Assembly (NCBI RefSeq): GCF_036321535.1
Contig: NC_087436.1
Coordinates: forward strand, 1,550,001 to 1,614,000
Direction of reading: 5' to 3'
DNA from: Camelus dromedarius
Lineage: Eukaryota
Length of the DNA: 64,000 bases
The notes beneath the pieces are model-generated. The model did no database searches and was not told the origin of the DNA. It saw only the letters and a list, made by a program, of their open reading frames with translations. The translations under genes were made by a program, and so were the position numbers. Shown here piece after piece: positions 1-64,000 of this stretch (within the stretch, counting starts at the first letter, position 1; every line of letters starts with the position of its first letter).

Positions 1-429
1 CCCCTTATATATGTATGGAGTGGAGTTAGCAACTGAAAATAAACTTTTTGTTCCCATCAAGCTAGGTGAAGGACGGCTTTCACACACACTTATCTCTCAG
101 AAATGAGCATGTGGAGAGACATTCGTTCATCTAGCACAAAGGGTACGTGTTGCAGGTGAAAACTTTCTCTGGTTTCTCAGTCTGTTTCCTAGTGCCGGTT
201 TGAAGTTCCTGCAGGTTTCACTGTAAAACCGAGTTGGAGCTAGTACCTCCCCATATATATGTATGGATTGGTGTTTGCAACTGAAAAGAAACATTGTGTA
301 CCCAACAAGCTAGTTGAAGGCGGCTTTCACACACACTTATCTGTCAGAACTGAGCATGTGGAGAGACGTTCGTTCATCTAGCACAAAGGGAACGGGTTGC
401 AGGAGAAACTTTTACTCTGGTTTCTCAGT

Positions 430-1845
430 CTGTTCCCTAGTGCCGGTATGAACTTCCTTCAGGTTTACCTGTAAAACATATTTGGAACTGTACCTACGCA
501 TATATATGTATGGAGTGGAATTTGCAACTGAAAATAAACTTTGTGTTCAGTACAAGCTAGTTTAAGGGAGGCAATCACACACACAAATCTCTCAGAACTG
601 ACCATGTGGAGAGACTTTCGTTCATCTAGCACAAAGGGAAAGGGTTGCAGGAGAAACTTTTACTGTGGTATCTCAGTGTGTTTCCTACTGCCGGTTTGAA
701 GTTCCTGCAGATTTCACTGTAAAACCGAGTTGGAGCTCGTACCTCCCCATATATATGTATGGAGTGGAGTTTGAAACTGAAAAGAAACTTTGTGTTCCCA
801 ACAAGCTAGGTGAAGGCGGCTTTCACACACACTTATCTCTCAGAACTGAGCATGTGGAGAGACTTTGGTTCATCTAGCACAAAGGGAAATGGTTGCAGGA
901 GAAACTTTTACTGTGGTATCTCAGTGTGTTTCCTACTGCCGGTTTGAAGTTCCTGCAGATTTCACTGTAAAACCGAGTTGGAGCTAGTACCTACCCATAT
1001 ATATGTATGGAGTGGAGTTTGCAAATGAAAAGAAACTTTGTGTTCCCAACAAGCTAGGTGAAGGCGGCTTTCACACACACTTATCTCTCAGAACTGAGCA
1101 TGTGGAGAGACGTTCGTTCATCTAGCACAAAGGGAACGTGTTGCAAGAGAAACTTTTACTTTGGTTTCTCAGTCTGTTTCCTATTACCGGTTTGAATTTC
1201 CTGCAGTTTTCACTGTAAAACCGATTTCTAGCTTGTACCACCCCATATATATTTATGGAGTGGATTTTGCAACTGAAAAGAAACTTTGTGTTCAGTACAA
1301 GACAGGTGAAGGACGGCTTTCACACACAATTATCTTTCAGAACTTAGCATGTGGAGAGACGTTCATTCATCTAGCAGAAAGGGAAAGGGTTGCAGGAGAA
1401 ACTATTAATCTGGTTTCTCAGTCTGTTTCCTACTGCCGGTTTGAAGTTCCTGCAGTTTTCACTGTAAAACCGATTTGGAACTCGTACCTCCCCATATATA
1501 TGTATGGACTGGAATTTGCAAGTGAAAAGAAACTTTGTGTTCCCAACAAGCTAGGTGAAAGATGGCTTTCACACACAATTATCTCTGAGAACTGAGCATG
1601 TGGAGAGACGTTCATTCATCTAACAGAAAGGGAAAGGGTTGCAGGAGAAACTTTTACTCTGGTTTCTCAGTCTATTTCCTACAGCCGGTTTGAAGTTCCT
1701 GCAGTTTTCACTGTAAAAGGGAGTTGAAGCTAGAACCTCCCCATATATATGTATGGAGTGGAGTTTGCAACTGAAAAGAAACTTTGTGTTCCCAACTAGC
1801 TATTTGAAGGACGGCTTTCACACACACTTATCTCTCAGAACTGAG
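430..1845 (+). repeat. Block of about 5.7 monomers that recurs at 62586-64000 (copy 1)
   Basis: Private variants such as CCCTAGTGCCGGTATGAACTTCCTTCAGGTTTACCTG, TACCTACGCATA and TTTAAGGGAGGCAATCAC occur only here and 62,156 bp downstream. ORFs 665 and 62821 encode identical peptides. Confidence 0.95.
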
Positions 1846-2459
1846 CATGTGGAGAGACGTTCGTTCATCTAGCACAAAGGGAACGGGTTGCAGGTGAAAA
1901 GTTTACTCTGGTTACTCAGACTGTTTCCTACTGCCGGTTTGAAGTTCCTGCAGTTTTCACTGTAAAACCGAGTTGGAGCTAGTACCTCCCCATATATATG
2001 TATGGAGTGTAGTTTGCAAGTGAAAAGAAACATTGTGATCCCAACAAGCTATGTGAAGTACGGCTTTCACACACAATTATCTCTCTGAACAGAGCATGTG
2101 GAGAGACGTTTGTTCATCTAGCACAAAGGGAACGGGTTGCAGGAGAAACTTTTACTCTGGTTTCTTAGTCTGTTTCCTAGTACCTTTTTGAAGTTCCTGC
2201 AGTTTTCACTTTAAAACAGATTTGGAGCTAGTACCTCCCCATATATATGTATGGAGTGGAGTTTGCAACTGAAAAGAAACTTTGTGCTCCCAACAAGCTA
2301 GGTGAAGGACGGCTTTCACACACACTTATGTCTCAGAACTGAGCATGTGGAGAGACTTTCGTTCATCTAGCACAAAGGAACGGGTTGCAGTAGAAACTTT
2401 TACTCTGGTTTCTCAGTCTGTTTCCTAGTGCCGGTTTGAAGTTCCTGCAGTTTTCACTG

Positions 2460-6089: not shown

Positions 6090-9000
6090 GTTCATCTACC
6101 ACAGAGGGAACGGGTTGCAGGAGAAACTTTTACTCTGGTTTCTCAGTCTGTTTCCTACTGCCGGTTTGAAGTTCCTGCAGTTTTCACTGTAAAACCAAGT
6201 TGGTGCTAGTACCTCCCCATATATATGTATGGAGTGGAGTTTGCAACTGAAAAGAAACTTTGTGTTCCCAACAAGCTAGGTGAAGGCGGCTTTCACACAC
6301 ACTTATCTCTCAGAACTGAGCATGTGGAGAGACGTTCGTTCATCTAGCACAATGGGAACATGTTGCAGGAGAAACTTTTACTCTGTATTCTCAGTCTGTT
6401 TCCTAGTACCGGTTTGAAGTTCCTGCAGTTTTCACTTTAAAACAGATTTGGAGCTAGTACCTCCCCATATATATGTATGGAGTGGAATTTGCAACTGAAA
6501 AGAATCTTTGTGTTAAGTACAAGCTAGGTTAAGGACGGCTTTCACACACACTTATCTCTCAGAACTGAGCATGTGGAGAGACGTTCGTTCATCTAGCACA
6601 AAGGGAACGGGTTGCACGTGAAAATTTTACTCTGGTTACTCAGACTGTTTCCTACTGCCGGTTTGAAGTTACTGCAGTTTTCACTGTAAAACCGAGTTGG
6701 AGCTAGTACCTCCCCATATATATGTATGGAGTGTAGTTTGCAAGTGAAAAGAAACATTGTGATCCCAACAAGCTATGTGAAGTACGGCTTTCACACACAA
6801 TTATCTCTCAAAACAGAGCATGTGGAGAGACGTTTGTTCATCTAGCACAAAGGGAACGGGTTGCAGGAGAAACTTTTACTCTGGTTTCTTAGTCTGTTTC
6901 CTAGTACCTTTTTGAAGTTACTGCAGATTTCACTGTAAAAACGAGTTGGAGCTAGTACCTCCCCATATATATGTATTGATTGGAGTTTGCAAATGAAAAG
7001 AATCTTTGTGTTCCCAACAAGCTAGGTGAAGGACGGATTTCACACAAACTTATCTCTCAGAACTGAGCATGTGGAGAGACTTTCGTTCATCTAGCTCAAA
7101 GGAACGGGTTGCAGTAGAAACTTTTACTCTGGTTTCTCAGTCTGTTTCCTAGTGCCGGTTTGAAGTTCCTGCAGTTTTCACTGTAAAAGCGAGTTGGAGC
7201 TCGTACCTCCCCATATATATGTATGGAGTGGAGTTTGAAAGTGAAAAGAAACTTTGTGTTCCCAACAAGCTAGGTGAAGGATGGCTTTCAAACACACTTA
7301 TCTCTGAGAACTGAGCATGTGGAGAGACGTTCGTTCATCTAGCACAAAGGGAATTGTTTGAAGGAGAAACTTTTACTCTGGTTTCTCTGTCTGTTTCCTA
7401 CTGCCGGTTTGAAATTCCTGCAGTTTTCACTGTAAAACAGATTTGGAGCTAGTACCTCCCCATATATATATATTGAATGGTATTTGCATCTGAAAAGAAT
7501 CTTTGTGTTCAGTACAAGCTAGGTTAAAGACGGCTTTCACACACGCTTATCTCTCAGAACTGAGCATGTGGAGAGACTTTCGTTCATCTAGCACAAAGGG
7601 AACGGGTTGCAGGAGAAACTTTTACTCTGGTTTCTCAGTCTGTTTCCTACTGCCGGTTTGAAGTTCCTGCAGTTTTCAATGTAAAACCGAGTTGGAGCTC
7701 GTACCTCCCCATATATATGTATGGAGTGGAGTTTGCAAGTGAAAACAAACATTGTGATCCCAACAAGCTATGTGAAGTACGGCTTTCACACACACTTATC
7801 TCTCAGAACTGAGCATGTGGAGAGACGTTCGTTCATCTAGCACAAAGGGAAAGTTTTGCAGGAGAAACTTTTACTCAGGTTTCTCAGTCTGTTTCCTAGT
7901 GCCGGTTTGAGGTTCTTGCAGGTTTCACTGTAAAACCGAGTTTGAGCTAGTACCTACCCATATATATGTATGGAGTGGGGTTTGCAACTGAAAAGAATCT
8001 TTGTGTTCCCAACAAGCTAGCTGAAGGCGGCTTTGACACACACTTATCTCTCAGAACAGAGCATGTGGAGAGACGTTTGTTCATCTAGCACAAAAGGAAC
8101 GGGTTGCAGGAGAAACTTTTACTCTGGTTTCTTAGTCTGTTTCCTAGTACCGGTTTGAAGTTACTACAGATTTCACTGTAAAAACGAGTTGGAGCTAGTA
8201 CCTCCCCATATATATGTATGGATTGGAGTTTGCAACTGAAAAGAAACTTTGTGTTCCCAACAAGCTAGGTGAAGGACGGATTTCACACACACTTATCTCT
8301 CAGAACTGAGCATGTAGAGAGACGTTCGTTCATCTAGCACAAAGGGAATGGGTTGCAGGAGAAAATTTTACTCTGGTTTCTCATTCTGTTTCCTAGTGCC
8401 GGGTTGAACTTCCTGCAGTTTTCACTGTAAAACAGATTTGGAGATAGTACCTCCCCATATATATGTATTGATTGGAATTTGCATCTGAAAAGAATCTTTG
8501 TGTTCAGTACAAGTTACGTTAAGGAAGGCTTTCACACACACTTATCTCTCAGAACTGAGCATGTGGAGAGAATTTCGTTCATCTAGCACAAAGGGAACAG
8601 GTTGCAGGAGAAACATTTACTCTGGTTTCTCAGTCTGTTTCCTACTGACGGTTTGAAGTTCCTGCAGTTTTCACTGTAAAACCGAGTTGGAGCTCGTACC
8701 ACCCCATATATATGTATGGAGTTGAGTTTGAAAGTGAAAAGAAACTTTGTGTTCCCAACAAGCTAGGTGAAGGATGGCTTTCAAACACACTTATCTCTGA
8801 GAAATCAGCATGTGGAGAGACGTTCGTTGATTTAGCACAAAGGGAACTGGTTGAAGGAAACTTTACTCTGGTTTCTCTGTCTGTTTCCTACTGCCGGTTT
8901 GAAGTTCCTGCAGTTTTTACTGTAAAACTGAGTTGAAGCTAGAACCTCCCCATATATATGTATGGAGTGGAGTTGCAACTGAAAAGAAACTTTGTGTTCC

Positions 9001-12000
9001 CAACAAGCTAGGTGAAGGACGGCTTTCACACACACTTATCTCTCAGAACTGAGCATGTGGAGAGACTTTCGTTCATCTAGCACAGAGGGAACGGGTTGCA
9101 GGAGAAACTTTTACTCTGGTTTCTCAGTCTGTTTCCTACTGCCGGTTTGAAGTTCCTGCAGTTTTCACTGTAAAACCAAGTTGGTGCTAGTACCTCCCCA
9201 TATATATGTATGGAGTGGAGTTTGCAACTGAAAAGAAACTTTGTGTTCCCAACAAGCTAGGTGAAGGCGGCTTTCACACACACTTATCTCTCAGAACTGA
9301 GCATGTGGAGAGACGTTCGTTCATCTAGCACAATGGGAACATGTTGCAGGAGAAACTTTTACTCTGTTTTCTCACTCTGTTTCCTAGTACCGGTTTGAAG
9401 TTCCTGCAGTTTTCACTTTAAAACAGATTTGGAGCTAGTACCTCCCCATATATATGTATGGAGTGGAATTTGCAACTGAAAAGAATCTTTGTGTTAAGTA
9501 CAAGCTAGGTTAAGGACGGCTTTCACACACACTTATCTCTCAGAACTGAGCATGTGGAGAGACGTTCGGTCATCTAGCACAAAGGGAACGGGTTGCAGGT
9601 GAAAATTTTACTCTGGTTACTCAGACTGTTTCCTACTGCCGGTTTGAAGTTCCTGCAGTTTTCACTGTAAAACCGAGTTCGAGCTAGTACCTCCCCATAT
9701 ATATGTATGGAGTGTAGTTTGCAAGTGAAAAGAAACATTGTGATCCCAACAAGCTATGTGAAGTACGGCTTTCACACACAATTATCTCTCAGAACAGAGC
9801 ATGTGGATAGACGTTTGTTCATCTAGCACAAAGGGAACGGGTTGCAGGAGAAACTTTTACTCTGGTTTCTTAGTCTGTTTCCTAGTACCTTTTTGAAGTT
9901 ACTGCAGATTTCACTGTAAAAACGAGTTGGAGCTAGTACATCCCCATATATATGTATCGATTGGAGTTTGCAAATGAAAAGAATCTTTGTGTTCCCAACA
10001 AGCTAGGTGAAGGACGGATTTCACTCACAATTATCTCTCAGAACTGAGCATGTGGAGAGACTTTCGTTCATCTAGCTCAAAGGAACGGGTTGCCGTAGAA
10101 ACTTTTACTCTGGTTTCTCAGTCTGTTTCCTAGTGCCGGTTTGAAGTTCCTGCAGTTTTCACTGTAAAAGCGAGTTGGAACTCGTACCTCCCCATATATA
10201 TGTATGGAGTGGAGTTTGAAAGTGAAAAGAAACTTTGTGTTCCCAACAAGCTAGGTGAAGGATGGCTTTCAAACACACTTATCTCTGAGAACTGAGCATG
10301 TGGAGAGACGTTCGTTCATCTAGCACAAAGGGAATTGTTTGAAGGAGAAACTTTTACTCTGGTTTATCTGTCTGTTTCCTACTGCCGGTTTGAAGTTCCA
10401 GCAGTTTTCACTGTAAAACAGATTTGGAGCTAGTACCTCCCCATATATATATATTGAATGGAATTTGCATCTGAAAAGAATCTTTGTGTTCAGTACAAGC
10501 TAGGTTAAAGACGGCTTTCACACACGCTTATCTCTCAGAACTGAGCATGTGGAGAGACTTTCGTTCATCTAGCACAAAGGGAACGGGTTGCAGGATAAAT
10601 TTTACTCTGGTTTCTCAGTCTGTTTCCTACTGCCGGTTTGAAGTTCCTGCAGTTTTCAATGTAAAACCGAGTTGGAGCTCGTACCTCCCCATATATATGT
10701 ATGGAGTGTAGTTTGCAAGTGAAAACAAACATTGTGATCCCAACAAGCTATGTGAAGTACGGCTTTCACACACACTTATCTCTCAGAACTAAGCATGTGG
10801 AGAGACGTTCGTTCATCTAGCACAAAGGGAAAGGTTTGCAGGAGAAACTTTTAGTCAGGTTTCTCAGTCTGTTTCCTAGTGCCGGTTTGAGGTTCTTGCA
10901 GGTTTCACTGTAAAACCGAGTTTGAGCTAGTACCTACCCATATATATGTATGGAGTGGGGTTTGCAACTGAAAAGAATCTTTGTGTTCCCAACAAGCTAG
11001 CTGAAGGCGGCTTTGACACACACTTATCTCTCAGAACAGAGCATGTGGAGAGACGTTTGTTCATCTAGCACAAAGGGAACGGGTTGCAGGAGAAACTTTT
11101 ACTCTGGTTTCTTAGTCTGTTTCCTAGTACCGGTTTGAAGTTACTACAGATTTCACTGTAAAAACGAGTTGGAGCTAGTACCTCCCCATATATATGTATG
11201 GATTGGAGTTTGCAACTGAAAAGAAACTTTGTGTTCCCAACAAGCTAGGTGAAGGACGGATTTCACACACACTTATCTCTCAGAACTGAGCATGTAGAGA
11301 GACGTTCGTTCATCTAGCACAAAGGGAATGGGTTGCAGGAGAAAATTTTACTCTGGTTTCTCATTCTGTTTCCTAGTGCCGGGTTGAACTTCCTGCAGTT
11401 TTCACTGTAAAACAGATTTGGAGCTAGTACCTCCCCATATATATGTATTGATTGGAATTTGCATCTGAAAAGAATCTTTGTGTTCAGTACAAGTTAGGTT
11501 AAGGAAGGCTTTCACACACACTTATCTCTCAGAACTGAGCATGTGGAGAGACTTTCGTTCATCTAGCACAAAGGGAACGGGTTGCAGGATAAATTTTACT
11601 CTGGTTTCTCAGTCTGTTTCCTACTGCCGGTTTGAAGTTCCTGCAGTTTTCAATGTAAAACCGAGTTGGAGCTCGTACCTCCCCATATATATGTATGGAG
11701 TGGAGTTTGCAAGTGAAAACAAACATTGTGATCCCAACAAGCTATGTGAAGTACGGCTTTCACACACACTTATCTCTCAGAACTAAGCATGTGGAGAGAC
11801 GTTCGTTCATCTAGCACAAAGGGAAAGGTTTGCAGGAGAAACTTTTACTCAGGTTTCTCAGTCTGTTTCCTAGTGCCGGTTTGAGGTTCTTGCAGGTTTC
11901 ACTGTAAAACCGAGTTTGAGCTAGTACCTACCCATATATATGTATGGAGTGGGGTTTGCAACTGAAAAGAATCTTTGTGTTCCCAACAAGCTAGCTGAAG

Positions 12001-13050
12001 GCGGCTTTGACACACACTTATCTCTCAGAACAGAGCATGTGGAGAGACGTTTGTTCATCTAGCACAAAGGGAACGGGTTGCAGGAGAAACTTTTACTCTG
12101 GTTTCTTAGTCTGTTTCCTAGTACCGGTTTGAAGTTACTACAGATTTCACTGTAAAAACGAGTTGGAGCTAGTACCTCCCCATATATATGTATGGATTGG
12201 AGTTTGCAACTGAAAAGAAACTTTGTGTTCCCAACAAGCTAGGTGAAGGACGGATTTCACACACACTTATCTCTCAGAACTGAGCATGTAGAGAGACGTT
12301 CGTTCATCTAGCACAAAGGGAATGGGTTGCAGGAGAAAATTTTACTCTGGTTTCTCATTCTGTTTCCTAGTGCCGGGTTGAACTTCCTGCAGTTTTCACT
12401 GTAAAACAGATTTGGAGCTAGTACCTCCCCATATATATGTATTGATTGGAATTTGCATCTGAAAAGAATCTTTGTGTTCAGTACAAGTTAGGTTAAGGAA
12501 GGCTTTCACACACACTTATCTCTCAGAACTGAGCATGTGGAGAGACTTTCGTTCATCTAGCACAAAGGGAACAGGTTGCAGGAGAAACATTTACTCTGGT
12601 TTCTCAGTCTGTTTCCTACTGCCGGTTTGAAGTTCCTGCAGTTTTCACTGTAAAACCGAGTTGGAGCTCGTACCACCCCATATATATGTATGGAGTGGAG
12701 TTTGAAAGTGAAAAGAAACTTTGTGTTCCCAACAAGCTAGGTGAAGGATGGCTTTCAAACACACTTATCTCTGAGAAATCAGCATGTGGAGAGACGTTCG
12801 TTGATTTAGCACAAAGGGAACTGGTTGAAGGGAAACTTTTACTCTGGTTTCTCTGTCTGTTTCCTACTGCCGGTTTGAAGTTCCTGCAGTTTTTACTGTA
12901 AAACTGAGTTGAAGCTAGAACCTCCCCATATATATGTATGGAGTGGAGTTGCAACTGAAAAGAAACTTTGTGTTCCCAACAAGCTAGGTGAAGGACGGCT
13001 TTCACACACACTTATCTCTCAGAACAGAGCATGTGGAGAGACATTCGTTC
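6090..13050 (+). repeat. 12-mer HOR in two copies (about 6090-9070 and 9070-13050), the second expanded to 16 monomers
   Basis: Marker ACAGAGGGAA at 6101 and 9082 (offset 2981). Terminal markers GAAATCAGCATG/GTTGATTTAGC occur at offset about 3974 (ORFs 8712 and 12686), equal to 12+4 monomers. Confidence 0.88.
10550..12540 (+). repeat. Near-perfect tandem 4-mer duplication (994-bp unit)
   Basis: CAATGTAAAA at 10657 and 11651. GCAGGATAAATTTT and AACTAAGCATG are present in both units. ORFs at 10484 and 11478. Confidence 0.92.
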
Positions 13051-49500: not shown

Positions 49501-52500
49501 AACTGAAAAGAAACTTTGTGTTCCCAACAACCTAGGTGAAGAACGGCTTTCACACACAATTATCTCTCAGAACTGAGCATGTGGAGAGACGTTCGTTCAT
49601 CTAGCACAAAGGGAATTTGTTGCAGGAGAAACTTTTACTCTGGTTTCTCAGTCTGTTTCCTACTGACGGTTTGAATTTCCTGCAGTTTTCACTGTAAAAC
49701 GGATTTGAAGCTAGTACCTCCCCATATATATATATGGAGTGGAATTTGCAACTGAAAAGAAACTTTGTGTTCCCAACAAGCTAGGTGAAGGACGGCTTTC
49801 ACACACACTTATCTCTCAGAACTGAGCATGTGGAGAGACTTTCGTTCATCTAGCACAAAGGAAACGCGTTGCAATTGAAAATTTTACTCTGGTTTCTCAG
49901 ACTGTTTCCTACTGCCGGTATGAAGTTCCTGCAGTTTTCACTGTAAAAACGAGTTGGAGCTAGTACCTCCCCATATATATTTATTGAGTGGAGTTTGCAA
50001 CTGAAAAGAAACTTTGTGTTCCCAACAATCTAGGTGAAGGACGGATTTCACACACACTTATCTCTCAGAATTGAGCATGTGGAGAGACGTTCGTTCATCT
50101 AGCACAAAGGGAATGGGTTGCAGGTGAAACTTTTACTCTGGTTTCTCAGTCTGTTTCCTAGTGCCGGTTTGAACTTCCTGCAGTATTCACTGTAAAACAG
50201 ATTTGGAGCTAGTACCTCCCCATATATATATATATGGAGTGGAGTTTGCAACTTAAAAGAAACTTTGTGTTCCCAACAAGTTAGGTGAAGGACGGCTTTC
50301 ACACACACTTTTCTCTCAGAACTGAGCATGTGGAGAGACGTTCGTTTATCTAGCACAAAGGGTATGGGTTGCAGGAGAAACTATTACTCTGGTTTCTCAG
50401 TGTGTTTCCTAGTGCCAGTTTGAATTTCCTGCAGTTTTCACTGTAAAACAGAGTTGGAGTTATTACCTCCCCATATATATGTATGGAGTGGAATTTGCAA
50501 CTGAAAAGAAACTTTGTGTTCCCAACAAGCTAGGTGAAGGACGGCTTTCACACACAATTATCTCTCAGAACTGAGCATGTGGAGAGACGTTCGTTCATCT
50601 AGCACAAAGGGAACGGGTTGCAGGTGAAACTTTTACTCTGGTTTCTCAGTCTGTTTCCTAGTGCCGATTTGAAGTTCCAGCAGTTTTCACTGTAAAACAG
50701 AGATGCTGTTATTACCTCCTCATATATATGTATGGAGTGGAGTTTGCAACTGAAAAGAAACTTTGTGTTCCTAACAAGCTAGGTGAAGTTCGGCTTTCAT
50801 ACACACTTATCTCTCAGAACTGAGCATGTGGAGTGACGTTCGTTCATCTAGCACAAATGGAACGGGTTGCAGGAGAAACTTTTACTCTGGTTTCTCAGTC
50901 TGTTTCCTACTGCCGGTTTGATGTTCCTGCAGATTTCACTGTAAAACCGAGTGGAGCTCGTACCTCCCCATATATATGTATGGAGTGGTGTTTGCAAGTG
51001 AAAAGAAACTTTGTGTTCCCAACAAGCTAGGTGAAGGATGGCTTTCATACACACTTATCTCTGAGAACTGAGCATGTGGAAAGACGTTCGTTCATCTAGC
51101 ACAAAGGGAACTGTTTGAAGGAGAAACTTTTACTCTGGTTTCTCTGTATGTTTCCTACTGCCGGTTTGAAGTTCCTGCAATTTTCACTGTAAAACCGTGT
51201 TGGAGCTTGTACCTCCCCATATATATGTATGGAATGGAGTTTGCAACTGAAAAGAAACTTTATGTTCCCAACAAGCTAGGTGAAGGACGGCTTTCACACA
51301 CACTTATCTCTCAGAACTGAGCATGTGGAGAGACGATCGTTCATCTAGCACAAAGGGAACGGGTTGCAGGAGAAACTTTTACTCTGGTTTCTCAGTCTGT
51401 ATCCTAGTACCGGTTTGAAGTTCCTGCAGTTTTAACTGTAAACAGATTTGGAGATAGTACATCCCCATATATATGTATGGAGTGGAATTTGCAACTGGAA
51501 AGGAACTTTGTGTTCAGTACAAGCTAGGTGAAGGACGGTTTCATACACAATTATCTCTCATAACTGAGCATGTGGAGAGACGTTCGTTCATCTAACACAA
51601 AGGGAACGGTTTGCAGGAGAAACTTTTACTCTGGTTTCTCAGTCTGTTTCTTAGTAACGGTTTGAATTTCCTGCATTTTTCACTGTAAAACCGAGTTGGA
51701 GCTAGTACCTCCCCATATATATATATGGAGTGGAGCTTGCAACTTAAAAGAAACTTTGTGTTCCCAACAAGTTAGGTGAAGGACGGCTTTCACACACACT
51801 TATCTCTCAGAACTGAGCATGTGGAGAGACGTTCGTTTATCTAGAACAAAGGGTATGGGTTGCAGGAGAAACTATTTCTCTGGTTTCTCAGTGTGTTTCC
51901 TAGTGCCATTTTGAATTTCCTGCAGTTTTCACTGTAAAACAGAGTTGGAGTTATTACCTCCCCATATATAAGTATGGAGTGGAGTTTGCAACTGAAAATA
52001 AACTTTGTGTTCCCAACAAGCTAGGTGAAGGACGGCTTTCACACACAATTATCTCTCAGAACTGAGCATGTGGAGAGAAGTTCGTTCATCTAGCACAAAG
52101 GGAACTGTTTGAAGGAGAAACTTTTACTCTGGTTTCTCAGTCTGTTTCCTACTGACGGTTTGAATTTCCTGCAGTTTTCACTGTAAAACGGATTTGGAGC
52201 TAGTACCTCCCCATATATATATATGGAGTGGAATTTTTAACTGAAAAGAAACTTTGTGTTCCCAACAAGCTAGGTGAAGGACGGCTTTCACACACACTTA
52301 TCTCTCAGAACTGAGCATGTGGAGAGACTTTCGTTCATCTAGCACAAAGGGAACGTGTTGCAAGTGAAAATTTTACTCTGGTTTCTCAGACTGTTTCCTA
52401 CTGCCTGTTTGAAGTTCCTGCATTTTTCACTGTAAAACCGAGTTGGAGCTAGTACCTCCCCATATATATGTATGGAGTGGAGTTTGCAACTGAAAAGAAA

Positions 52501-55500
52501 CTTTGTGTTCCCAACAATCAAGGTGAAGAACGGATTTCACACACACTTATCTCTCAGAATTGAGCATGTGGAGAGACGTTCGTTCATCTAGCACAAAGGG
52601 AATGGGTTGCAGGTGAAACTATTACTCTGGTTTCTCAGTCTGTTTCCTAGTGCCGGTTTGAACTTAATGCAGTATTCACTGTAAAACAGATTTGGAGCTA
52701 GTACCTCCCCATATATATATATGGAGTGGAGTTTGCAACTTAAAAGAAACTTTGTGTTCCCAACAAGTTAGGTGAAGGACGGCTTTCACACACACTTATC
52801 TCTCAGAACTGAGCATGTGGAGAGACGATCGTTCATCTAGCACAAAGGGAACGGGTTGCAGGAGAAACTTTTACTCTGGTTTCTCAGTCTGTATCCTAGT
52901 ACCGGTTTGAAGTTCCTGCAGTTTTAACTGTAAACAGATTTGGAGATAGTACATCCCCATATATATGTATGGAGTGGAATTTGCAACTGGAAAGGAACTT
53001 TGTGTTCAGTACAAGCTAGGTGAAGGACGGTTTCATACACAATTATCTCTCATAACTGAGCATGTGGAGAGACGTTCGTTCATCTAACACAAAGGGAACG
53101 GTTTGCAGGAGAAACTTTTACTCTGGTTTCTCAGTCTGTTTCTTAGTAACGGTTTGAATTTCCTGCATTTTTCACTGTAAAACCGAGTTGGAGCTAGTAC
53201 CTCCCCATATATATATATGGAGTGGAGCTTGCAACTTAAAAGAAACTTTGTGTTCCCAACAAGTTAGGTGAAGGACGGCTTTCACACACACTTATCTCTC
53301 AGAACTGAGCATGTGGAGAGACGTTCGTTTATCTAGAACAAAGGGTATGGGTTGCAGGAGAAACTATTTCTCTGGTTTCTCAGTGTGTTTCCTAGTGCCA
53401 TTTTGAATTTCCTGCAGTTTTCACTGTAAAACAGAGTTGGAGTTATTACCTCCCCATATATATGTATGGAGTGGAGTTTGCAACTGAAAAGAAACTTTGT
53501 GTTCCCAACAAGCTAGGTGAAGGACGGCTTTCACACACAATTATCTCTCAGAACTGAGCATGTGGAGAGAAGTTCGTTCATCTAGCACAAAGGGAACGGG
53601 TTGCAGGAGAAACTTTTACTCTGGTTTCTCAGTCTGTTTCCTAGTGCCGATTTGAAGTTCCAGCAGTTTTCACTGTAAAACAGAGATGGTGTTAGTACCT
53701 CCTCATATATATGTATGGAGTGGATTTTGCAACTGAAAAGAAACTTTGTGTTCCTAACAAGCTAGGTGAAGTTCGGCTTTCATACACACTTATCTCTCAG
53801 AACTGAGCATGTGGAGTGACGTTCGTTCATCTAGCACAAATGGAACGGGTTTCAGGAGAAATTTTACTCTGGTTTCTCAGTCTGTTTCCTACTGCCGGTT
53901 TGATGTTCCTGCAGTTTTCACTGTAAAACCGAGTTGGAGCTCGTACCTCCCCATATATATGTATGGAGTGGTGTTTACAAGTGAAAAGAAACTTTGTGTT
54001 CCCAACAAGCTAGGTGAAGGATGGCTTTCAAACACACTTATCTCTGAGAACTGAGCATGTGGAAAGACGTTCGTTCATCTAGCACAAAGGGAACTGGTTG
54101 AAGGAGAAACTTTTACTCTGGTTTCTCTGTATGTTTCCTACTGCCGGTTTGAATTTCGTGCAGTATTCACTGTAAAACCGAGTTGGAGCTTGTACCTCCC
54201 CATATATATGTATGGAGTAGAGTTTGCAACTGAAAAGAATCTTTGTGTTCCAAACAAGCTAGGTGAAGGACGGCTTTCACACACAATTATCTCTAGGAAC
54301 TGAGCATGTGGAGAGACTTTCGTTCATCTAGCACAAAGGGAACGGGTTGCAGGAGAATCTTATACTCTGGTTTCTCAGTCTGTTTCCTACTGCCGTTTTG
54401 AAGTTCCTGCAGTTTTCACTGTAAAACCGAGTGGGAGCTCGTACCTCCCCATATATATGTATGGAGAGGTGTTTGCAAGTGAAAAGAAACTTTGTGTTCT
54501 CAACAAGCTAGGTGAAGGATGGCTTTCAAACACACTTATCTCTGAGAACTGAGCATGTGGAGAGAAGTTCGTTCATCTAGCACAAAGGGAACTGTTTGAA
54601 GGAGAAACTTTTACTCTGGTTTCTCTGTCTGTTTCCTACTGACGGTTTGAAGTTCCTGCAGTTTTCACTGTAAAACCGAGTTGGAGCTAGTACCTCCCCA
54701 TATATATTTATGGAGTGGAGTTTGCAAGTGAAAAGAAACATTGTGATCCCAACAAGCTAGGTGAATTAAGGCTTTCACACACACTTATCTCTCAGAACTG
54801 AGCATGTGGAGAGACGTTCGTTCATCTAGCACAAAGGAAAAAGTTTGCAGGAGAAACTTTTACTCAGGTTTCTCAGTCCTTTTCCTAGTGCCGGTTTGAA
54901 GTTCCTGCAGTTTTCACTGTAAAACCGAGTTGGAGCTCGTACCTCCCCATATATATGTATGGAGTGGAGTTTGCAACTGAAAAGAAACTTTGTGTTCCCA
55001 ACAATCTAGGTGAAGAACAGATTTCACACACACTTATCTCTCAGAATTGAGCATGTGGAGAGACGTTCGTTCATCTAGCACAAAGGGAATGGGTTGCAGG
55101 TGAAACTATTACTCTGGTTTCTCAGTCTGTTTCCTAGTGCCGGTTTGAACTTAATGCAGTATTCACTGTAAAACAGATTTGGAGCTAGTACCTCCCCATA
55201 TATATATATGGAGTGGAGTTTGCAACTTAAAAGAAACTTTGTGTTCCCAACAAGTTAGGTGAAGGACGGCTTTCACACACACTTATCTCTCAGAACTGAG
55301 CATGTGGAGAGACGATCGTTCATCTAGCACAAAGGGAACGGGTTGCAGGAGAAACTTTTACTCTGGTTTCTCAGTCTGTATCCTAGTACCGTTTTGAAGT
55401 TCCTGCAGTTTTCACTGTAAACAGATTTGGAGATAGTACATCCCCATATATATGTATGGAGTGGAATTTGCAACTGGAAAGGAACTTTGTGTTCAGTACA

Positions 55501-58500
55501 AGCTAGGTGAAGGACGGTTTCATACACAATTATCTCTCATAACTGAGCATGTGGAGAGACGTTCGTTCATCTAACACAAAGGGAACGGTTTGCAGGAGAA
55601 ACTTTTACTCTGGTTTCTCAGTCTGTTTCTTAGTAACGGTTTGAATTTCCTGCATTTTTCACTGTAAAACCGAGTTGGAGCTAGTACCTCCCCATATATA
55701 TATATGGAGTGGAGCTTGCAACTTAAAAGAAACTTTGTGTTCCCAACAAGTTAGGTGAAGGACGGCTTTCACACACACTTATCTCTCAGAACTGAGCATG
55801 TGGAGGGACGTTCGTTTATCTAGAACAAAGGGTATGGGTTGCAGGAGAAACTATTTCTCTGGTTTCTCAGTGTGTTTCCTAGTGCCATTTTGAATTTCCT
55901 GCAGTTTTCACTGTAAAACAGAGTTGGAGTTATTACCTCCCCATATATATGTATGGAGTGGAGTTTGCAACTGAAAAGAAACTTTGTGTTCCCAACAAGC
56001 TAGGTGAAGGACGGCTTTCACACACAATTATCTCTCAGAACTGAGCATGTGGAGAGAAGTTCGTTCATCTAGCACAAAGGGAACGGGTTGCAGGAGAAAC
56101 TTTTACTCTGGTTTCTCAGTCTGTTTCCTAGTGCCGATTTGAAGTTCCAGCAGTTTTCACTGTAAAACAGAGATGGTGTTAGTACCTCCTCATATATATG
56201 TATGGAGTGGATTTTGCAACTGAAAAGAAACTTTGTGTTCCTAACAAGCTAGGTGAAGTTCGGCTTTCATACACACTTATCTCTCAGAACTGAGCATGTG
56301 GAGTGACGTTCGTTCATCTAGCACAAATGGAACGGGTTTCAGGAGAAATTTTACTCTGGTTTCTCAGTCTGTTTCCTACTGCCGGTTTGATGTTCCTGCA
56401 GTTTTCACTGTAAAACCGAGTTGGAGCTCGTACCTCCCCATATATATGTATGGAGTGGTGTTTACAAGTGAAAAGAAACTTTGTGTTCCCAACAAGCTAG
56501 GTGAAGGATGGCTTTCAAACACACTTATCTCTGAGAACTGAGCATGTGGAGAGAAGTTCGTTCATCTAGCACAAAGGGAACTGTTTGAAGGAGAAACTTT
56601 TACTCTGGTTTCTCAGTCTGTTTCCTACTGACGGTTTGAATTTCCTGCAGTTTTCACTGTAAAACGGATTTGGAGCTAGTACCTCCCCATATATATATAT
56701 GGAGTGGAATTTTTAACTGAAAAGAATCTTTGTGTTCCCAACAAGCTAGGTGAAGGACGGCTTTCACACACACTTATCTCTCAGAACTGAGCATGTGGAG
56801 AGACTTTCGTTCATCTAGCACAAAGGGAACGTGTTGCAAGTGAAAATTTTACTCTGGTTTCTCAGACTGTTTCCTAGTGCCTGTTTGAAGTTCCTGCATT
56901 TTTCACTGTAAAACCGAGTTGGAGCTAGTACCTCCCCATATATATGTATGGAGTGGAGTTTGCAACTGAAAAGAAACTTTGTGTTCCCAACAATCTAGGT
57001 GAAGAACGGATTTCACACACACTTATCTCTCAGAATTGAGCATGTGGAGAGACGTTCGTTCATCTAGCACAAAGGGAATGGGTTGCAGGTGAAACTATTA
57101 CTCTGGTTTCTCAGTCTGTTTCCTAGTGCCGGTTTGAACTTAATGCAGTATTCACTGTAAAACAGATTTGGAGCTAGTACCTCCCCATATATATATATGG
57201 AGTGGAGTTTGCAACTTAAAAGAAACTTTGTGTTCCCAACAAGTTAGGTGAAGGACGGCTTTCACACACACTTATCTCTCAGAACTGAGCATGTGGAGAG
57301 ACGATCGTTCATCTAGCACAAAGGGAACGGGTTGCAGGAGAAACTTTTACTCTGGTTTCTCAGTCTGTATCCTAGTACCGGTTTGAAGTTCCTGCAGTTT
57401 TAACAGTAAACAGATTTGGAGATAGTACATCCCCATATATATGTATGGAGTGGAATTTGCAACTGGAAAGGAACTTTGTGTTCAGTAAAAGCTAGGTGAA
57501 GGACGGTTTCATACACAATTACTCTCATAACTGAGCATGTGGAGAGACGTTCGTTCATCTAACACAAAGGGAACGGTTTGCAGGAGAAACTTTTACTCTG
57601 GTTTCTCAGTCTGTTTCTTAGTAACGGTTTGAATTTCCTGCATTTTTCACTGTAAAACCGAGTTGGAGCTAGTACCTCCCCATATATATATATGGAGTGG
57701 AGCTTACAACTTAAAAGAAACTTTGTGTTCCCAACAAGTTAGGTGAAGGACGGCTTTCACACACACTTATCTTTCAGAACTGAGCATGTGGAGAGACGTT
57801 CGTTTATCTAGAACAAAGGGTATGGGTTGCAGGAGAAACTATTTCTCTGGTTTCTCAGTGTGTTTCCTAGTGCCATTTTGAATTTCCTGCAGTTTTCACT
57901 GTAAAACAGAGTTGGAGTTATTACCTCCCCATATATATGTATGGAGTGGAGTTTGCAACTGAAAAGAAACTTTGTGTTCCCAACAAGCTAGGTGAAGGAC
58001 GGCTTTCACACACAATTATCTCTCAGAACTGAGCATGTGGAGAGAAGTTCGTTCATCTAGCACAAAGGGAACGGGTTGCAGGAGAAACTTTTACTCTGGT
58101 TTCTCAGTCTGTTTCCTAGTGCCGATTTGAAGTTCCAGCAGTTTTCACTGTAAAACAGAGATGGTGTTAGTACCTCCTCATATATATGTATGGAGTGGAT
58201 TTTGCAACTGAAAAGAAACTTTGTGTTCCTAACAAGCTAGGTGAAGTTCGGCTTTCATACACACTTATCTCTCAGAACTGAGCATGTGGAGTGACGTTCG
58301 TTCATCTAGCACAAATGGAACGGGTTTCAGGAGAAATTTTACTCTGGGTTCTCAGTCTGTTTCCTACTGCCGGTTTGATGTTCCTGCAGTTTTCACTGTA
58401 AAACCGAGTTGGAGCTCGTATCTCCCCATATATATGTATGGAGTGGTGTTTACAAGTGAAAAGAAACTTTGTGTTCCCAACAAGCTAGGTGAAGGATGGC

Positions 58501-61500
58501 TTTCAAACACACTTATCTCTGAGAACTGAGCATGTGGAAAGACGTTCGTTCATCTAGCACAAAGGGAACTGGTTGAAGGTGAAACTTTTACTCTGGTTTC
58601 TCTGTATGTTTCCTACTGCCGGTTTGAAGTTCCTGCAGTATTCACTGTAAAACCGAGTTGGAGCTTGTACCTCCCCATATATATGTATGGAGTAGAGTTT
58701 GCAACTGAAAAGAATCTTTGTGTTCCAAACAAGCTAGGTGAAGGACGGCTTTCACACACAATTATCTCTAGGAACTGAGCATGTGGAGAGACTTTCGTTC
58801 ATCTAGCACAAAGGGAACGGGTTGCAGGAGAATCTTATACTCTGGTTTCTCAGTCTGTTTCCTACTGCCGTTTTGAAGTTCCTGCAGTTTTCACTGTAAA
58901 ACCGAGTGGGAGCTCGTACCTCCCCATATATATGTATGGAGAGGTGTTTGCAAGTGAAAAGAAACTTTGTGTTCCCAACAAGCTAGGTGAAGGATGGCTT
59001 TCAAACACACTTATCTCTGAGAACTGAGCATGTGGAGAGAAGTTCGTTCATCTAGCACAAAGGGAACTGTTTGAAGTAGAAACTTTTACTCTGGTTTCTC
59101 TGTCTGTTTCCTACTGACGGTTTGAATTTCCTGCAGTTTTCACTGTAAAACAGATTTGAAGCTAGAACATCCCCATATATATTTATGGAGTGGAGTTTGC
59201 AACTGAAAAGAAACTTTGTGTTCCCAACAAGCTAGGAGAAGGACGGCTTTCACACACACTTATCTCTCAGAACTGAGCATGTGGAGAGACGTTCGTTCAT
59301 CTAGCACAAATGGAACGGGTTGCAGGTGAAAATTTTACTCTGGTTTCTCAGACTGTTTCCTACTGCCGGTTTGAAGTTCCTGCAGTTTTCACTGTAAAAC
59401 CGAGTTGGAGCTAGTACCTCCCCATATATATTTATGGAGTGGAGTTTGCAAGTGAAAAGAAACATTGTGATCCCAACAAGCTAGGTGAATTAAGGCTTTC
59501 ACACACACTTATCTCTCAGAACTGAGCATGAGGAGAGACGTTCGTTCATCTAGCACAAAGGAAAAAGTTTGCAGGAGAAACTTTTACTCAGGTTTCTCAG
59601 TCATTTTCCTAGTGCCGGTTTGAAGTTCCTGCAGTTTTCACTGTAAAACCGAGTTGGAGCTCGTACCTCCCCATATATATGTATGGAGTGGAGTTTGCAA
59701 CTGAAAAGAAACTTTGTGTTCCCAACAAGCTAGGTGAAGGCGGCTTTCACACACACTTATCTCTCAGAACTGAGAATGTGGAGAGACGTTCGTTCATCTA
59801 GCACAAAGGGAACGGGTTGCAGGAGAAACTTTTATTCTTGTTTCTCAGTCTGTATCCTAGTACCGGTTTGAAGTTCCTGCAGTTTTCACTGTAAACAGAT
59901 TTGGAGCTTGTACATCCCCATATATATATATGGAGTGGAGTTTGCAACTTAAAAGAAACTTTGTGTTCCCAACAAGTTAGGCGAAGGACGGCTTTAACAC
60001 ACACTTATCTCTCAGAACTGAGCATGTGGAGAGACGATTGTTCATCTAGCACAAAGGGTATGATTTGCAGGAGAAACTATTACTCTGTTTTCTCAGTGTG
60101 TTTCCTAGTGCCAGTTTGAATTTCCTGCAGTTTTCACTGTAAAACAGGGTTGGAGTTATTACCTACCCATATATATGTACTGATAGAAGTTTGCAAATGA
60201 AAAGAAACTTTGTGTTCCCAACAACCTAGGTGAAGGACGGCTTTCACACACACTTATCTCTCAGAACTTAGCATGTGGAGACACGTTCGTTCATCTAGCA
60301 CAAAGGGAATGGGTTGCAGGAGAAACTTTTACTCTGGTTTCTCAGTCTGTTTCCTACTGACGGTTTGAATTTCCTGCAGTTTTCACTGTAAAACGGATTT
60401 GGAGCTAGTACCTCCCCATATATATATATGGAGTGGAATTTGCAACTGAAAAGAAACTTTGTGTTCCCAACAAGCTAGGTGAAAGACGGCTTTCACACAC
60501 ACTTATCTCTCAGAACTGAGCATGTGGAGAGACTTTCGTTCATCTAGAACAAAGGGAACGGGTTGCAAGTTAAAATTTTACTCTGGTTTCTCAGACTGTT
60601 TCCTACTGCCGGTTTGAAGTTCCTGTAGTTTTCACTGTAAAACCGAGTTCGAGCTAGAACCTCCCCATATATATGTATGGAGTGGAGTTTGCAACTGAAA
60701 AGAAACTTTGTGTTCCCAACAATCTAGGTGAAGGACGGATTTCACACACACTTATCCCTCAGAATTGAGTATGTGGAGAGACGTTCGTTCATCTAGCACA
60801 AAGGGAATGGGTTGCAGGTGAAACTTTTACTCTGGTTTCTCAGTCTGTTTCCTAGTGCCGGTTTGATCTTCCTGCAGTATTCACTGTAAAACAGATTTGG
60901 AGCTAGTACCTCCCCATATATATATATGGAGTGGAGTTTGCAACTTAAAAGAAACTTTGTGTTCCCAACAAGTTAGGTGAAGGACGGCTTTCACACACAC
61001 TTATCTCTCAGAACTGAGCATGTGGAGAGACGTTCGTTCATCTAGCAAAAAGGGAACGGGTTGCAGGAGAAACTTTTACTCTGGTTTCTCAGTCTGTATC
61101 CTAGTACCGGTTTGAAGTTCCTGCAGTTTTCACTGTAAACAGATTTGGAGATAGTACATCCCCATATATATGTATGGAGTGGAATTTGCAACTGAAAAGG
61201 AACTTTGTGTTCAGTACAAGCTAGGTGAAGGACGGTTTCATACACACTTATCTCTCAGAACTGAGCATGTGGAGAGACGTTCGTTCATCTAGCACAAAGG
61301 GAACGTTTTGCAGGAGAAACATTTACTCTGGTTTCTCAGTCTTTTTCTTAGTAACGGTTTGAATTTCCTGCATTTTTCACTGTAAAACCGAGTTGGAGCT
61401 AGTACCTCCCCATATATATAAATGGAGTGGAGCTTGCAACTTAAAAGAAACTTTGTGTTCCCAACAAGTTAGGTGAAGGACGGCTTTCACACACACTTAT

Positions 61501-62575
61501 CTCTCAGAACTGAGCATGTGGAGAGACGTTCGTTTATCTAGAACAAAGGATATGGGTTGCAGGGGAAACTATTACTCTGGTTTCTCAGTGTGTTTCCTAG
61601 TGCCAGTTTGAATTTCCTGCAGTTTTCACTGTAAAACAGAGTTGGAGTTATTACCTCCCCATATATATGTATGGAGTGGAGTTTGCAACTGAAAAGAAAC
61701 TTTGTGTTCCCAACAAGCTAGGTGAAGGACGGCTTTCACACACAATTATCTCTCAGAACTGAGCATGTGGAGAGAAGTTCGTTCATCTAGCACAAAGGGA
61801 ACGGGTTGCAGGAGAAACTTTTACTCTGGTTTTTCAGTCTGTTTCCTAGTGCCGATTAGAAGTTCCAGCAGTTTTCACTGTAAAACAGAGATGGTGATAG
61901 TACCTCCTCATATATATGTATGGAGTGGATTTTGCAACTGAAAAGAAACTTTGTGTTCCTAACAAGCTAGGTGAAGGTCGGCTTTCATACACACTTATCT
62001 CTCAGAAATGAGCATGTGGAGTGACGTTCGTTCATCTAGCACAAATGGAACGGTTTGCAGGAGAAACTTTTACTCTGGTTTCTCAGTCTGTTTCCTACTG
62101 CCGGTTTGATGTTCCTGCAGTTTTCACTGTAAAACCGAGTTGGAGCTCGTACCTTCCCATATATATGTATGGAGTGGTGTTTGCAAGTGAAAAGAAACTT
62201 TGTGTTCCCAACAAGCTAGGTGAAGGATGGCTTTCAAACACACTTATCTCTGAGAAATGAGCATGTGGAAAGACGTTCGTTCATCTAGCACAAAGGGAAC
62301 TGTCTGAAGGAGAAACTTTTACTCTGGTTTCTCTGTATGTTTCCTACTGCCGATATGAAGTTCCTGCAGTTTTCACTGTAAAACCGAGTTGGAGCTTGTA
62401 CCTCCCCATATATATGTATGGAGTGGAGTTTGCAACTGAAAAGAATCTTTGTGTTCCCAACAAGCTAGGTGAAGGACGGCTTTCACACACAATTATCTCT
62501 CAGAACTGAGCATGTGGAGAGACTTTCGTTCATCTAGCACAAAAGGAATGGGTTGCAGGAGAAACTATTTCTCTG
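46500..62575 (+). repeat. Macro-unit copy 2 (rearranged internally, truncated at about 62575)
   Basis: Colinear with 27610-45170. The offset is 18895/6 up to about 54.8 kb and 17404 distally (40880/58284, 42394/59798, 43638/61042, 44617/62021). Confidence 0.93.
51334..58530 (+). repeat. 6/10/8-mer HOR tract within macro-unit copy 2
   Basis: CGATCG at 51334, 52826, 55313 and 57302 (spacings 1492, 2487, 1989). Confidence 0.9.
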
Positions 62576-62585
62576 GTTTCTCAGT

Positions 62586-64000
62586 CTGTTCCCTAGTGCC
62601 GGTATGAACTTCCTTCAGGTTTACCTGTAAAACATATTTGGAACTGTACCTACGCATATATATGTATGGAGTGGAATTTGCAACTGAAAATAAACTTTGT
62701 GTTCAGTACAAGCTAGTTTAAGGGAGGCAATCACACACACAAATCTCTCAGAACTGAGCATGTGGAGAGACTTTCGTTCATCTAGCACAAAGGGAAAGGG
62801 TTGCAGGAGAAACTTTTACTGTGGTATCTCAGTGTGTTTCCTACTGCCGGTTTGAAGTTCCTGCAGATTTCACTGTAAAACCGAGTTGGAGCTCGTACCT
62901 CCCCATATATATGTATGGAGTGGAATTTGAAACTGAAAAGAAACTTTGTGTTCCCAACAAGCTAGGTGAAGGCGGCTTTCACACACACTTATCTCTCAGA
63001 ACTGAGCATGTGGAGAGACTTTGGTTCATCTAGCACAAAGGGAAAGGGTTGCAGGAGAAACTTTTACTGTGGTATCTCAGTGTGTTTCCTACTGCCGGTT
63101 TGAAGTTCCTGCAGATTTCACTGTAAAACCGAGTTGGAGCTAGTACCTACCCATATATATGTATGGAGTGGAGTTTGCAAATGAAAAGAAACTTTGTGAT
63201 CCCAACAAGCTAGGTGAAGGCGGCTTTCACACACACTTATCTCTCAGAACTGAGCATGTGGAGAGACGTTCGTTCATCTAGCACAAAGGGAACGTGTTGC
63301 AAGGGAAACTTTTACTTTGGTTTCTCAGTCTGTTTCCTATTACCGGTTTGAATTTCCTGCAGTTTTCACTGTAAAACCGATTTCTAGCTTGTACCACCCC
63401 ATATATATTTATGGAGTGGATTTTGCAACTGAAAAGAAACTTTGTGTTCAGTACAAGCCAGGTGAAGGACGGCTTTCACACACAATTATCTTTCAGAACT
63501 TAGCATGTGGAGAGACGTTCATTCATCTAGCAGAAAGGGAAGGGTTGCAGGAGAAACTTTTAATCTGGTTTCTCAGTCTGTTTCCTACTGCCGGTTTGAA
63601 GTTCCTGCAGTTTTCACTGTAAAACCGATTTGGAACTCGTACCTCCCCATATATATGTATGGACTGGAATTTGCAAGTGAAAAGAAACTTTGTGTTCCCA
63701 ACAAGCTAGGTGAAAGATGGCTTTCACACACAATTATCTCTGAGAACTGAGCATGTGGAGAGACGTTCATTCATCTAACATAAAGGGAAAGGGTTGCAGG
63801 AGAAACTTTTACTCTGGTTTCTCAGTCTATTTCCTACAGCCGGATTGAAGTTACTGCAGTTTTCACTGTAAAAGAGAGTTGAAGCTAGAACCTCCCCATA
63901 TATATGTATGGAGTGGAGTTTGCAACTGAAAAGAAACTTTGTGTTCCCAACTAGCTATGAGAAGGACGGCTTTCACACACACTTATCTCTCAGAACTGAG
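62586..64000 (+). repeat. Recurrence of the window-start block 430-1845 (copy 2, runs off the window end)
   Basis: Offset 62,156 bp. About 14 differences seen by eye over about 1.4 kb, including a 1-bp deletion near 63540 that frameshifts the ORF equivalent to 1161. Confidence 0.95.

What the first reader, a model, noticed from the sequence alone, without database searches (positions are those of the whole stretch)
1..64000. Multi-tier nested higher-order repeat architecture in a 249-bp satellite (candidate centromeric array)
Seen: diagnostic variants recur at offsets that are all integer multiples of about 248.6 bp: 249 (1), 498 (2), 994 (4), 1492 (6), 1989 (8), 2487 (10), 2981 (12), 3731 (15), 5718 (23), 8204/8454 (33/34), 18895 (76) and 62156 (about 250). 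Established: HORs built from diverged monomers are typical of centromeric satellites such as primate alpha satellite and Arabidopsis CEN178. Inference: this is an actively turning-over (peri)centromeric array without a single fixed HOR. The 249-bp unit is longer than the common 150-180 bp mononucleosomal monomers, and I do not recognise the family.
Basis: partly seen in the sequence, partly recalled or inferred. Interest (0 to 1): 0.7.

Follow-up and report, generated by a model that had tools for sequence, protein, structure and literature searches.

The report
Camelid centromere-type satellite, transversion-rich
This is a stretch of the main repeated DNA of camel-family animals, already published as their likely centromere repeat and arranged in an ordinary patchwork of duplicated blocks; its one unusual trait is that its copies differ mostly by transversions, as in active human centromeres.

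Summary
The whole window is one uninterrupted array of 257 monomers of 245-251 bp, 90% identical pairwise. The block structure is real: 60 HOR blocks at 49 lags cover 194 of 257 monomers; 1000 order shuffles gave at most 1 block. It is not new. The consensus matches the 248-bp Lama glama candidate centromere repeat of Melters 2013 at 235 of 249 columns (by eye). The many lags have no significant single period, and a neutral in-register duplication/deletion simulation brackets them: the known Arabidopsis-type heterogeneous HOR. Offsets being multiples of 249 is trivial, and lags 1 and 2 are not enriched. Centromere function is likely but untested; there is no CENP-B box. A 2026 preprint reports 0.55 in active human alpha satellite and calls its extension to other satellites unknown. 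Verdict: known family, ordinary architecture, one useful side result.

The parts
1..64000 (+). Single uninterrupted tandem array of a camelid 248/249-bp satellite, 257 full monomers, all in one orientation
   Evidence: family match
27598..35800 (+). First copy of the youngest large block (33 monomers), repeated 76 monomers downstream, 0.17% divergent
46493..54696 (+). Second copy of the 33-monomer block (lag 76, 18,895 bp)
37043..45000 (+). First copy of the lag-70 block (31 of 32 monomers close); with the lag-76 block it forms one ~76/70-monomer unit present twice
54448..62404 (+). Second copy of the lag-70 block (17,405 bp)
35801..41020 (+). Local 8-monomer HOR, about 2.6 tandem copies, 0.56% divergent, nested in the 76/70-monomer unit
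6216..12676 (+). Older short duplications at lags 12, 16 and 4 (1.1-1.7% divergent)
18647..29585 (+). Three copies of one block at lags 23, 11 and 34 (1.7-2.0% divergent)
497..1739 (+). Five monomers repeated 250 monomers downstream (0.96% divergent)
62653..63894 (+). Second copy at lag 250 (62,156 bp); runs to the window end, so a longer duplication is possible
35801..36048 (+). Mosaic junction monomer: template switch in register between unit positions 74 and 120
62405..62652 (+). Mosaic junction monomer: 5' part follows the lag-70 template, 3' part the lag-250 template; switch in register at about unit positions 167-186

Best explanation
The window lies inside a large array of the major camelid 248/249-bp satellite, the published candidate centromere repeat of the llama. 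The array descends from near-consensus monomers that have each drifted about 6% from the consensus. It is remodelled by homology-directed, in-register duplications and deletions of whole monomers (4 to 76, perhaps 250) plus short conversions. Younger events copy older ones, which gives nested tiers with no fixed period. Shown: array, blocks, tiers, mosaic junctions, family match, spectrum. Inferred: recombination as the cause (from Arabidopsis mutation-accumulation data), a (peri)centromeric position (my estimate 0.85) and CENP-A binding at this very stretch (about 0.45). For the low Ti/Tv my preferred mechanism (inference, about 0.4) is error-prone bypass of damaged or abasic bases during repair synthesis: 80% of changes (C>A, C>T, T>A classes) are what insertion of A opposite a lesion at G, C or A would give (A-rule, recalled).
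For: Family: 235 of 249 columns identical to the llama repeat (by eye), length 248 vs 249, GC 45% vs 45.0%; one monomer drew 881,870 of 13,877,675 and 418,337 of 6,253,879 contig records in two DNA runs under two species labels. Architecture: 60 blocks, 49 lags; longer blocks are younger (Spearman -0.37, p 0.004, blocks not independent); no significant period (Fisher g 0.064, p 0.15); all monomers 245-251 bp and two clear mosaic junction monomers, as reported for CEN178 mutations; simulation brackets every observed statistic in 2 of 6 parameter sets, with 20 and 19 of 60 runs reaching 60 blocks. Spectrum: Ti/Tv 0.31 in 82 non-redundant monomers (site bootstrap 0.23-0.41), 0.29 without CpG and hot sites, 0.33 by tree parsimony, 0.30 polarity-free on 198 spanning-tree edges.
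Against: No CENP-A, FISH or chromosome-position evidence; no genome was held. Melters' assignment is by abundance only and lists HOR 'not found' for the llama. No CENP-B box with up to 1 mismatch (0 matches, 3.1 expected). A 10% pairwise background is the level of divergent, non-active layers in human alpha satellite. The llama comparison was made by eye, not by an aligner. Simulation parameters were tuned, and the observed block count lies above the median in all 6 sets. The rarest alleles give a milder ratio (0.37 for 89 singletons, 0.46 for 152 alleles seen at most twice) and one distance class gives 0.43 (CI 0.31-0.58). No clear polymerase-zeta dinucleotide signature: adjacent double changes 103 vs 77.5 expected, similar excess at distances 3 and 20.
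Confidence: 0.85

Rival explanations
1. Same family and mechanism, but the stretch is pericentromeric heterochromatin or a retired centromere layer, not kinetochore-forming DNA.
For: 10% pairwise background divergence, the level of dead or divergent alpha-satellite layers; no CENP-B box; very high abundance implies much of the family lies outside CENP-A domains (inference).
Against: [quoted passage not shown]
Confidence: 0.45
2. The low Ti/Tv comes from filtering, not from mutation input: repeated conversion among monomers with mismatch-type-dependent repair removes transitions (above all T>C) or favours A/T alleles.
For: Four-gamete violations in 41-60% of common allele pairs and r2 falling with distance within the monomer show recombination or recurrent mutation; rare alleles are less skewed; Suzuki 2020 and the Arabidopsis study link reduced transitions to conversion.
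Against: Terminal branches have the same spectrum as internal ones (85 transitions, 278 transversions, back-changes left out); the closest pairs give 0.27; unbiased conversion only recycles existing differences.
Confidence: 0.35
3. The near-identical 76/70-monomer blocks or the variant spectrum are assembly or sequencing artefacts.
For: Satellite arrays are prone to mis-assembly (established); no long reads were laid across the junctions.
Against: The copies differ by 15 and 21 derived differences, many shared with other monomers; tiers run from 0.2 to 3%; raw Illumina reads of two other runs give 16 transitions to 56 transversions and 21 to 65 among listed places after removing the reference monomer's 6 own changes.
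Confidence: 0.05
4. A regimented, chromosome-specific HOR as in human alpha satellite (an 8-mer or a 76-mer) that is decaying.
For: Strongest period 7.7; a tandem 8-mer at 35,801-41,020.
Against: Period not significant (p 0.15); only 22 of 249 lag-8 pairs are close and 49 lags occur; monomers do not fall into a few fixed types (132 clusters at 4 or fewer differences).
Confidence: 0.08

Closest known systems
Lama glama 248-bp candidate centromere repeat (Melters et al. 2013, PMC4053949, additional files 1 and 3)
   Same: 235 of 249 columns identical by eye (13 substitutions, 1 gap), about as far as an average monomer is from the window consensus (14.3 differences); same GC; high abundance (2.9% of the llama genome).
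   Different: One base shorter; HOR listed as 'not found' there, while this array is 75% in HOR blocks. The camelid species of the window was not determined.
Heterogeneous HORs of Arabidopsis CEN178 type (bioRxiv 10.64898/2026.09.17.752431; 10.1101/2025.06.02.657473)
   Same: Many block lengths and spacings, no long-range period, whole-unit indels, mosaic junction units (vs 36, 50, 59).
   Different: Unrelated sequence, mammalian host, no retrotransposon insertion in this window; duplicated units up to 76 monomers, against 1-31 seen in the Arabidopsis lines.
Human active alpha satellite (bioRxiv 10.64898/2026.09.03.749043; PMC3975068; PMC7732198)
   Same: Loss of transition bias (Ti/Tv 0.55) and drift from consensus towards A/T.
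   Different: Here the ratio is lower (about 0.3, below the 0.5 of no bias), there is no CENP-B box and no regimented HOR; measured between monomers of one array, not between haplotypes.
Alpaca VpaSat01-20 (PMC13751797)
   Same: Camelid satellites.
   Different: Units of 1.8-8.5 kb, chosen as non-centromeric; the paper set the centromere-associated arrays aside. Their full monomers were cut at 400 letters in the supplement and were not searched for embedded 249-bp units.

Membership tests
Camelid 248-bp candidate centromere repeat (Melters 2013) | Full-length sequence similarity to the published monomer | tested here: met
   235 of 249 columns, compared by eye; no aligner was run on the published sequence
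Camelid 248-bp candidate centromere repeat (Melters 2013) | Monomer length and GC (248 nt, 45%) | tested here: met
   249/248 bp; consensus GC 45.0%
Camelid 248-bp candidate centromere repeat (Melters 2013) | Most abundant tandem repeat of the genome | tested here: inconclusive
   6.4% and 6.7% of contig records in 2 of 2 DNA runs laid; not ranked against other repeats, and record counts are no copy number
Heterogeneous HOR array (TRASH definition) | Paired blocks of 4 or more monomers, each at least 96% alike | tested here: met
   60 blocks, 194 of 257 monomers; shuffles at most 1 block (definition)
Heterogeneous HOR array (TRASH definition) | No significant single period | tested here: met
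   Fisher g p 0.15 in my approximate implementation, one 257-monomer window
Heterogeneous HOR array (TRASH definition) | Whole-unit, in-register changes with mosaic junction units | tested here: met
Regimented HOR (human alpha-satellite type) | One fixed multi-monomer period repeated over long range | tested here: not met
   49 lags; 8-mer only local
Functional centromere DNA | CENP-A occupancy | not testable with these tools
   no ChIP data; none surfaced for camelids in searches
Functional centromere DNA | Position at the primary constriction | not testable with these tools
   no genome held
CENP-B-box satellites (alpha, mouse minor) | CENP-B box core motif | tested here: not met
   0 matches with up to 1 mismatch, 3.1 expected; motif recalled, printed in the passage

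The most novel reading that the evidence does not exclude
Mammalian centromeric satellites share a sequence-independent mutational process that nearly abolishes T>C and yields strand-symmetric C>A and T>A changes. This camelid array, unrelated to alpha satellite and lacking CENP-B boxes, shows it more strongly (Ti/Tv about 0.3) than human active arrays (0.55). It would drive monomers towards about 10% GC while the consensus stays at 45% and is 94% conserved with the llama repeat, so something must keep re-amplifying near-consensus copies. Ti/Tv could then serve as a sequence-only marker of active centromere arrays in unstudied mammals.
Probability: 0.4. Interest if true: 0.6.

Novelty: new member of a known kind. 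Interest (0 to 1): 0.3.

Why it matters
As posed, little: the repeat was published in 2013 and nested heterogeneous HORs are common. Two modest gains remain. The searches here found no description of HOR organisation for this camelid repeat (Melters lists none). And the spectrum bears on a question left open in September 2026, whether the transversion-rich spectrum of active alpha satellite extends to other centromeric satellites. A non-primate, CENP-B-box-free case argues against box methylation as the cause and gives a resolved six-class signature to test. Related hints exist for cattle (34 transitions of 105 between consensus units) and Arabidopsis, so the direction is not a surprise.

Tried and rejected
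Whole genome: none held. Rfam on the first 3,000 of 64,000 bases: 0 matches. ORFs of 100 aa or more: 4, at different phases of the repeat, taken as chance. Searches for '249 bp' or '249-bp' found only plant, insect and unrelated papers; the match came from a short motif in the Melters supplement. Internal sub-repeat (ancient dimer): best half-versus-half score 19, reached by 109 of 300 shuffles; only short repeats in one monomer. Unusual single-strand structure: z -1.74, 14 of 200 shuffles as good. Specific transcription: 289 and 211 of 12.9 million reads in two single-cell RNA runs, both directions: no evidence of a defined RNA. Polymerase-zeta dinucleotide signature and a clear trinucleotide context: not evident with 249 sites. 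Earlier scan findings: none. The alpaca VicPac4 paper is not held; the 1987 and 1994 restriction-satellite papers were not read; Dfam and Repbase are not available; bioRxiv supplements were not seen and may hold six-class spectra for alpha satellite. Any of these may already name or map this repeat.
Full report
Observation. Tandem Repeats Finder reports one array, period 249, 257.4 copies, over 1-64000. Composition is flat, GC 0.41-0.43 in all 32 bins. Decomposition gave 257 full monomers of 245-251 bp and a 106-bp remainder, without any gap; monomers differ from the consensus by 14.3 sites on average and from each other by 24.9 (90.0% identity). That offsets are multiples of the unit is automatic. 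The real evidence is contiguity: by the TRASH definition (4 or more monomers, each 96% alike) there are 60 paired blocks at 49 lags covering 194 of 257 monomers, while 1000 shuffles of monomer order gave a mean of 0.005 and at most 1. Lags 1, 2 and 4 are not enriched in close pairs; lag 70, among the strongest, was missed.

Architecture. The youngest layer is a 33-monomer block at lag 76 (0.17% divergent), followed by a 32-monomer block at lag 70, so one unit of about 76/70 monomers occurs twice. Inside it lie a tandem 8-mer (0.56%) and blocks at lags 24, 16 and 15 (1-3%). Lags 4, 12, 16, 11, 23 and 34 (1.1-2.0%) occupy the left half, and five monomers at the window start recur at lag 250 (0.96%). 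Longer blocks are less diverged (rho -0.37; blocks are not independent) and no period is significant (Fisher g p 0.15). Two junction monomers, at 35,801 and 62,405, are mosaics that switch template in register. This is what Arabidopsis mutation-accumulation lines show directly: all 56 large indels add or remove whole units, often with mosaic junctions (section read). A neutral simulation of in-register duplication, deletion and point mutation brackets all six observed statistics in 2 of 6 parameter sets of 60 runs each (20 and 19 runs reached 60 blocks; 3-10 in the other four); parameters were tuned after a coarse scan. A 2026 atlas finds HORs prevalent, both regimented and heterogeneous, and 103 of 263 families longer than 200 bp (sections 6 and 25 read). 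The architecture and the unit length are therefore ordinary.

Identity. No genome was held and Rfam gave nothing on the first 3 kb. Of 24 runs listed, 20 hold the stretch; the 14 best (shares 0.77-0.88) fall under two coded species labels. One monomer drew 881,870 of 13,877,675 contig records in X1 and 418,337 of 6,253,879 in X7, joined head to tail: a major satellite. A short motif found one hit in the three supplements of Melters 2013: the Lama glama candidate centromere repeat, 248 nt, 45% GC, 2.9% of the genome, HOR 'not found'. By eye it matches the window consensus at 235 of 249 columns (13 substitutions, 11 of them transversions, and 1 gap), no further than an average monomer. The window is thus camelid; the species was not determined. 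Among 24 alleles taken from the 40 rows shown (84 more not shown), frequencies agree between the two species labels (rho 0.93) but not with this array (rho -0.01 and -0.20), which suggests an array-specific variant profile (crude depths, selected alleles).

Centromere or not. Melters' label rests on abundance (passages). A 2026 alpaca paper describes only 1.8-8.5 kb units chosen as non-centromeric and leaves the centromere-associated arrays aside (abstract, introduction, results, table supplement). No CENP-A data for camelids surfaced in searches or 57. There is no CENP-B box. For an active core: no insertions or inversions in 64 kb, very young duplications, low Ti/Tv. Against: 10% background divergence, typical of retired layers in humans (passages). 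I put (peri)centromeric position at 0.85 and CENP-A binding of this stretch at about 0.45; both are inference.

Substitution spectrum. Against the consensus, 82 non-redundant monomers give C>A 37.3%, T>A 22.0%, C>T 20.4%, C>G 12.9%, T>G 4.3%, T>C 3.2% of 1,189 changes, Ti/Tv 0.31 (site bootstrap 0.23-0.41); 0.29 on the 194 sites left after removing CpG and hot sites; 0.33 by parsimony, alike on tips and inner branches. Complementary changes are balanced (C>A 45.5 and G>T 50.6 per thousand). Polarity-free counts on 198 spanning-tree edges give 311 transitions and 1,042 transversions (0.30), 0.27 for the closest pairs. Raw Illumina reads of X21 and X24 give 16:56 and 21:65 among listed places after removing the reference monomer's 6 own changes, so it is no artefact of this assembly. 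Against: singleton alleles give 0.37, alleles seen at most twice 0.46, and one distance class 0.43; common classes are near saturation (95 of 112 possible C>A alleles seen), which biases rare-allele counts upward. No camelid genome-wide control was possible; the usual value of about 2 is taken from the human preprint. The rates imply an equilibrium GC of 9.6% against 45.0% in the consensus.

What is known of that. Human active alpha satellite has Ti/Tv 0.55 against 2.3 expected, strongest in active arrays, cause unclear, extension to other satellites stated as unknown (passages; camelids not mentioned in its main text). Earlier work saw no transition excess and an A/T-ward drift (passages); cattle consensus units differ by 34 transitions in 105 (passage); Arabidopsis centromeres have fewer GC>AT transitions. 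So the direction is known, and this array adds a stronger, non-primate, box-free case. My preferred cause is insertion of A opposite damaged or abasic bases during repair synthesis (recalled A-rule; fits 80% of changes; about 0.4); filtering by biased conversion is the main rival (about 0.35). No dinucleotide signature supports a particular polymerase.

Papers. Seen as passages only: PMC4053949 (plus supplement passages), PMC9549924, PMC3975068, PMC7732198, PMC9008013, PMC11062924, PMC13477059, PMC12905343, 10.64898/2026.09.03.749043. Named sections read: PMC13751797 (3, 10, table supplement), 10.64898/2026.09.17.752431 (6, 25), 10.1101/2025.06.02.657473 (7). Not seen: the VicPac4 paper, the 1987 and 1994 camelid satellite papers, all bioRxiv supplements.

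Verdict. Interest 0.3, carried by the substitution spectrum rather than by the HORs.

Noticed in passing
window 1-64000: Monomer variation has Ti/Tv about 0.3 with C>A 37%, T>A 22% and T>C only 3%, strand-symmetric; raw reads of other runs agree.
   Followed up: yes
window 1-64000: Substitution rates imply an equilibrium GC near 10%, yet the consensus is 45% GC and 94% identical to the llama repeat; what resets the array is unexplained.
   Followed up: partly
window 54697-54945: The monomer at the lag-76/lag-70 joint matches neither expected template but monomers 51 upstream and 19 downstream (2 differences each), and shares its 5' half with the mosaic at 35,801: a complex, multi-template event.
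   Followed up: partly
window 23121-23617: The only adjacent near-identical monomer pair (4 differences, 281-bp exact match): a single-monomer duplication.
   Followed up: no
window 62405-64000 vs 250-1739: The last monomers match the first ones at about 1%, so a duplication of about 62 kb may extend beyond both window ends.
   Followed up: no
unit positions 1-16 (e.g. window 46493-46508): The first ten unit positions are the least variable decile (1.6% vs up to 11%) and lie in a short hairpin-forming dyad; not tested for significance.
   Followed up: no
window 46493-46741 laid on X21, X24: Low-level RNA reads in both directions (289 and 211 of 12.9 million); 16 molecules begin at 46,596 in X24.
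   Followed up: no
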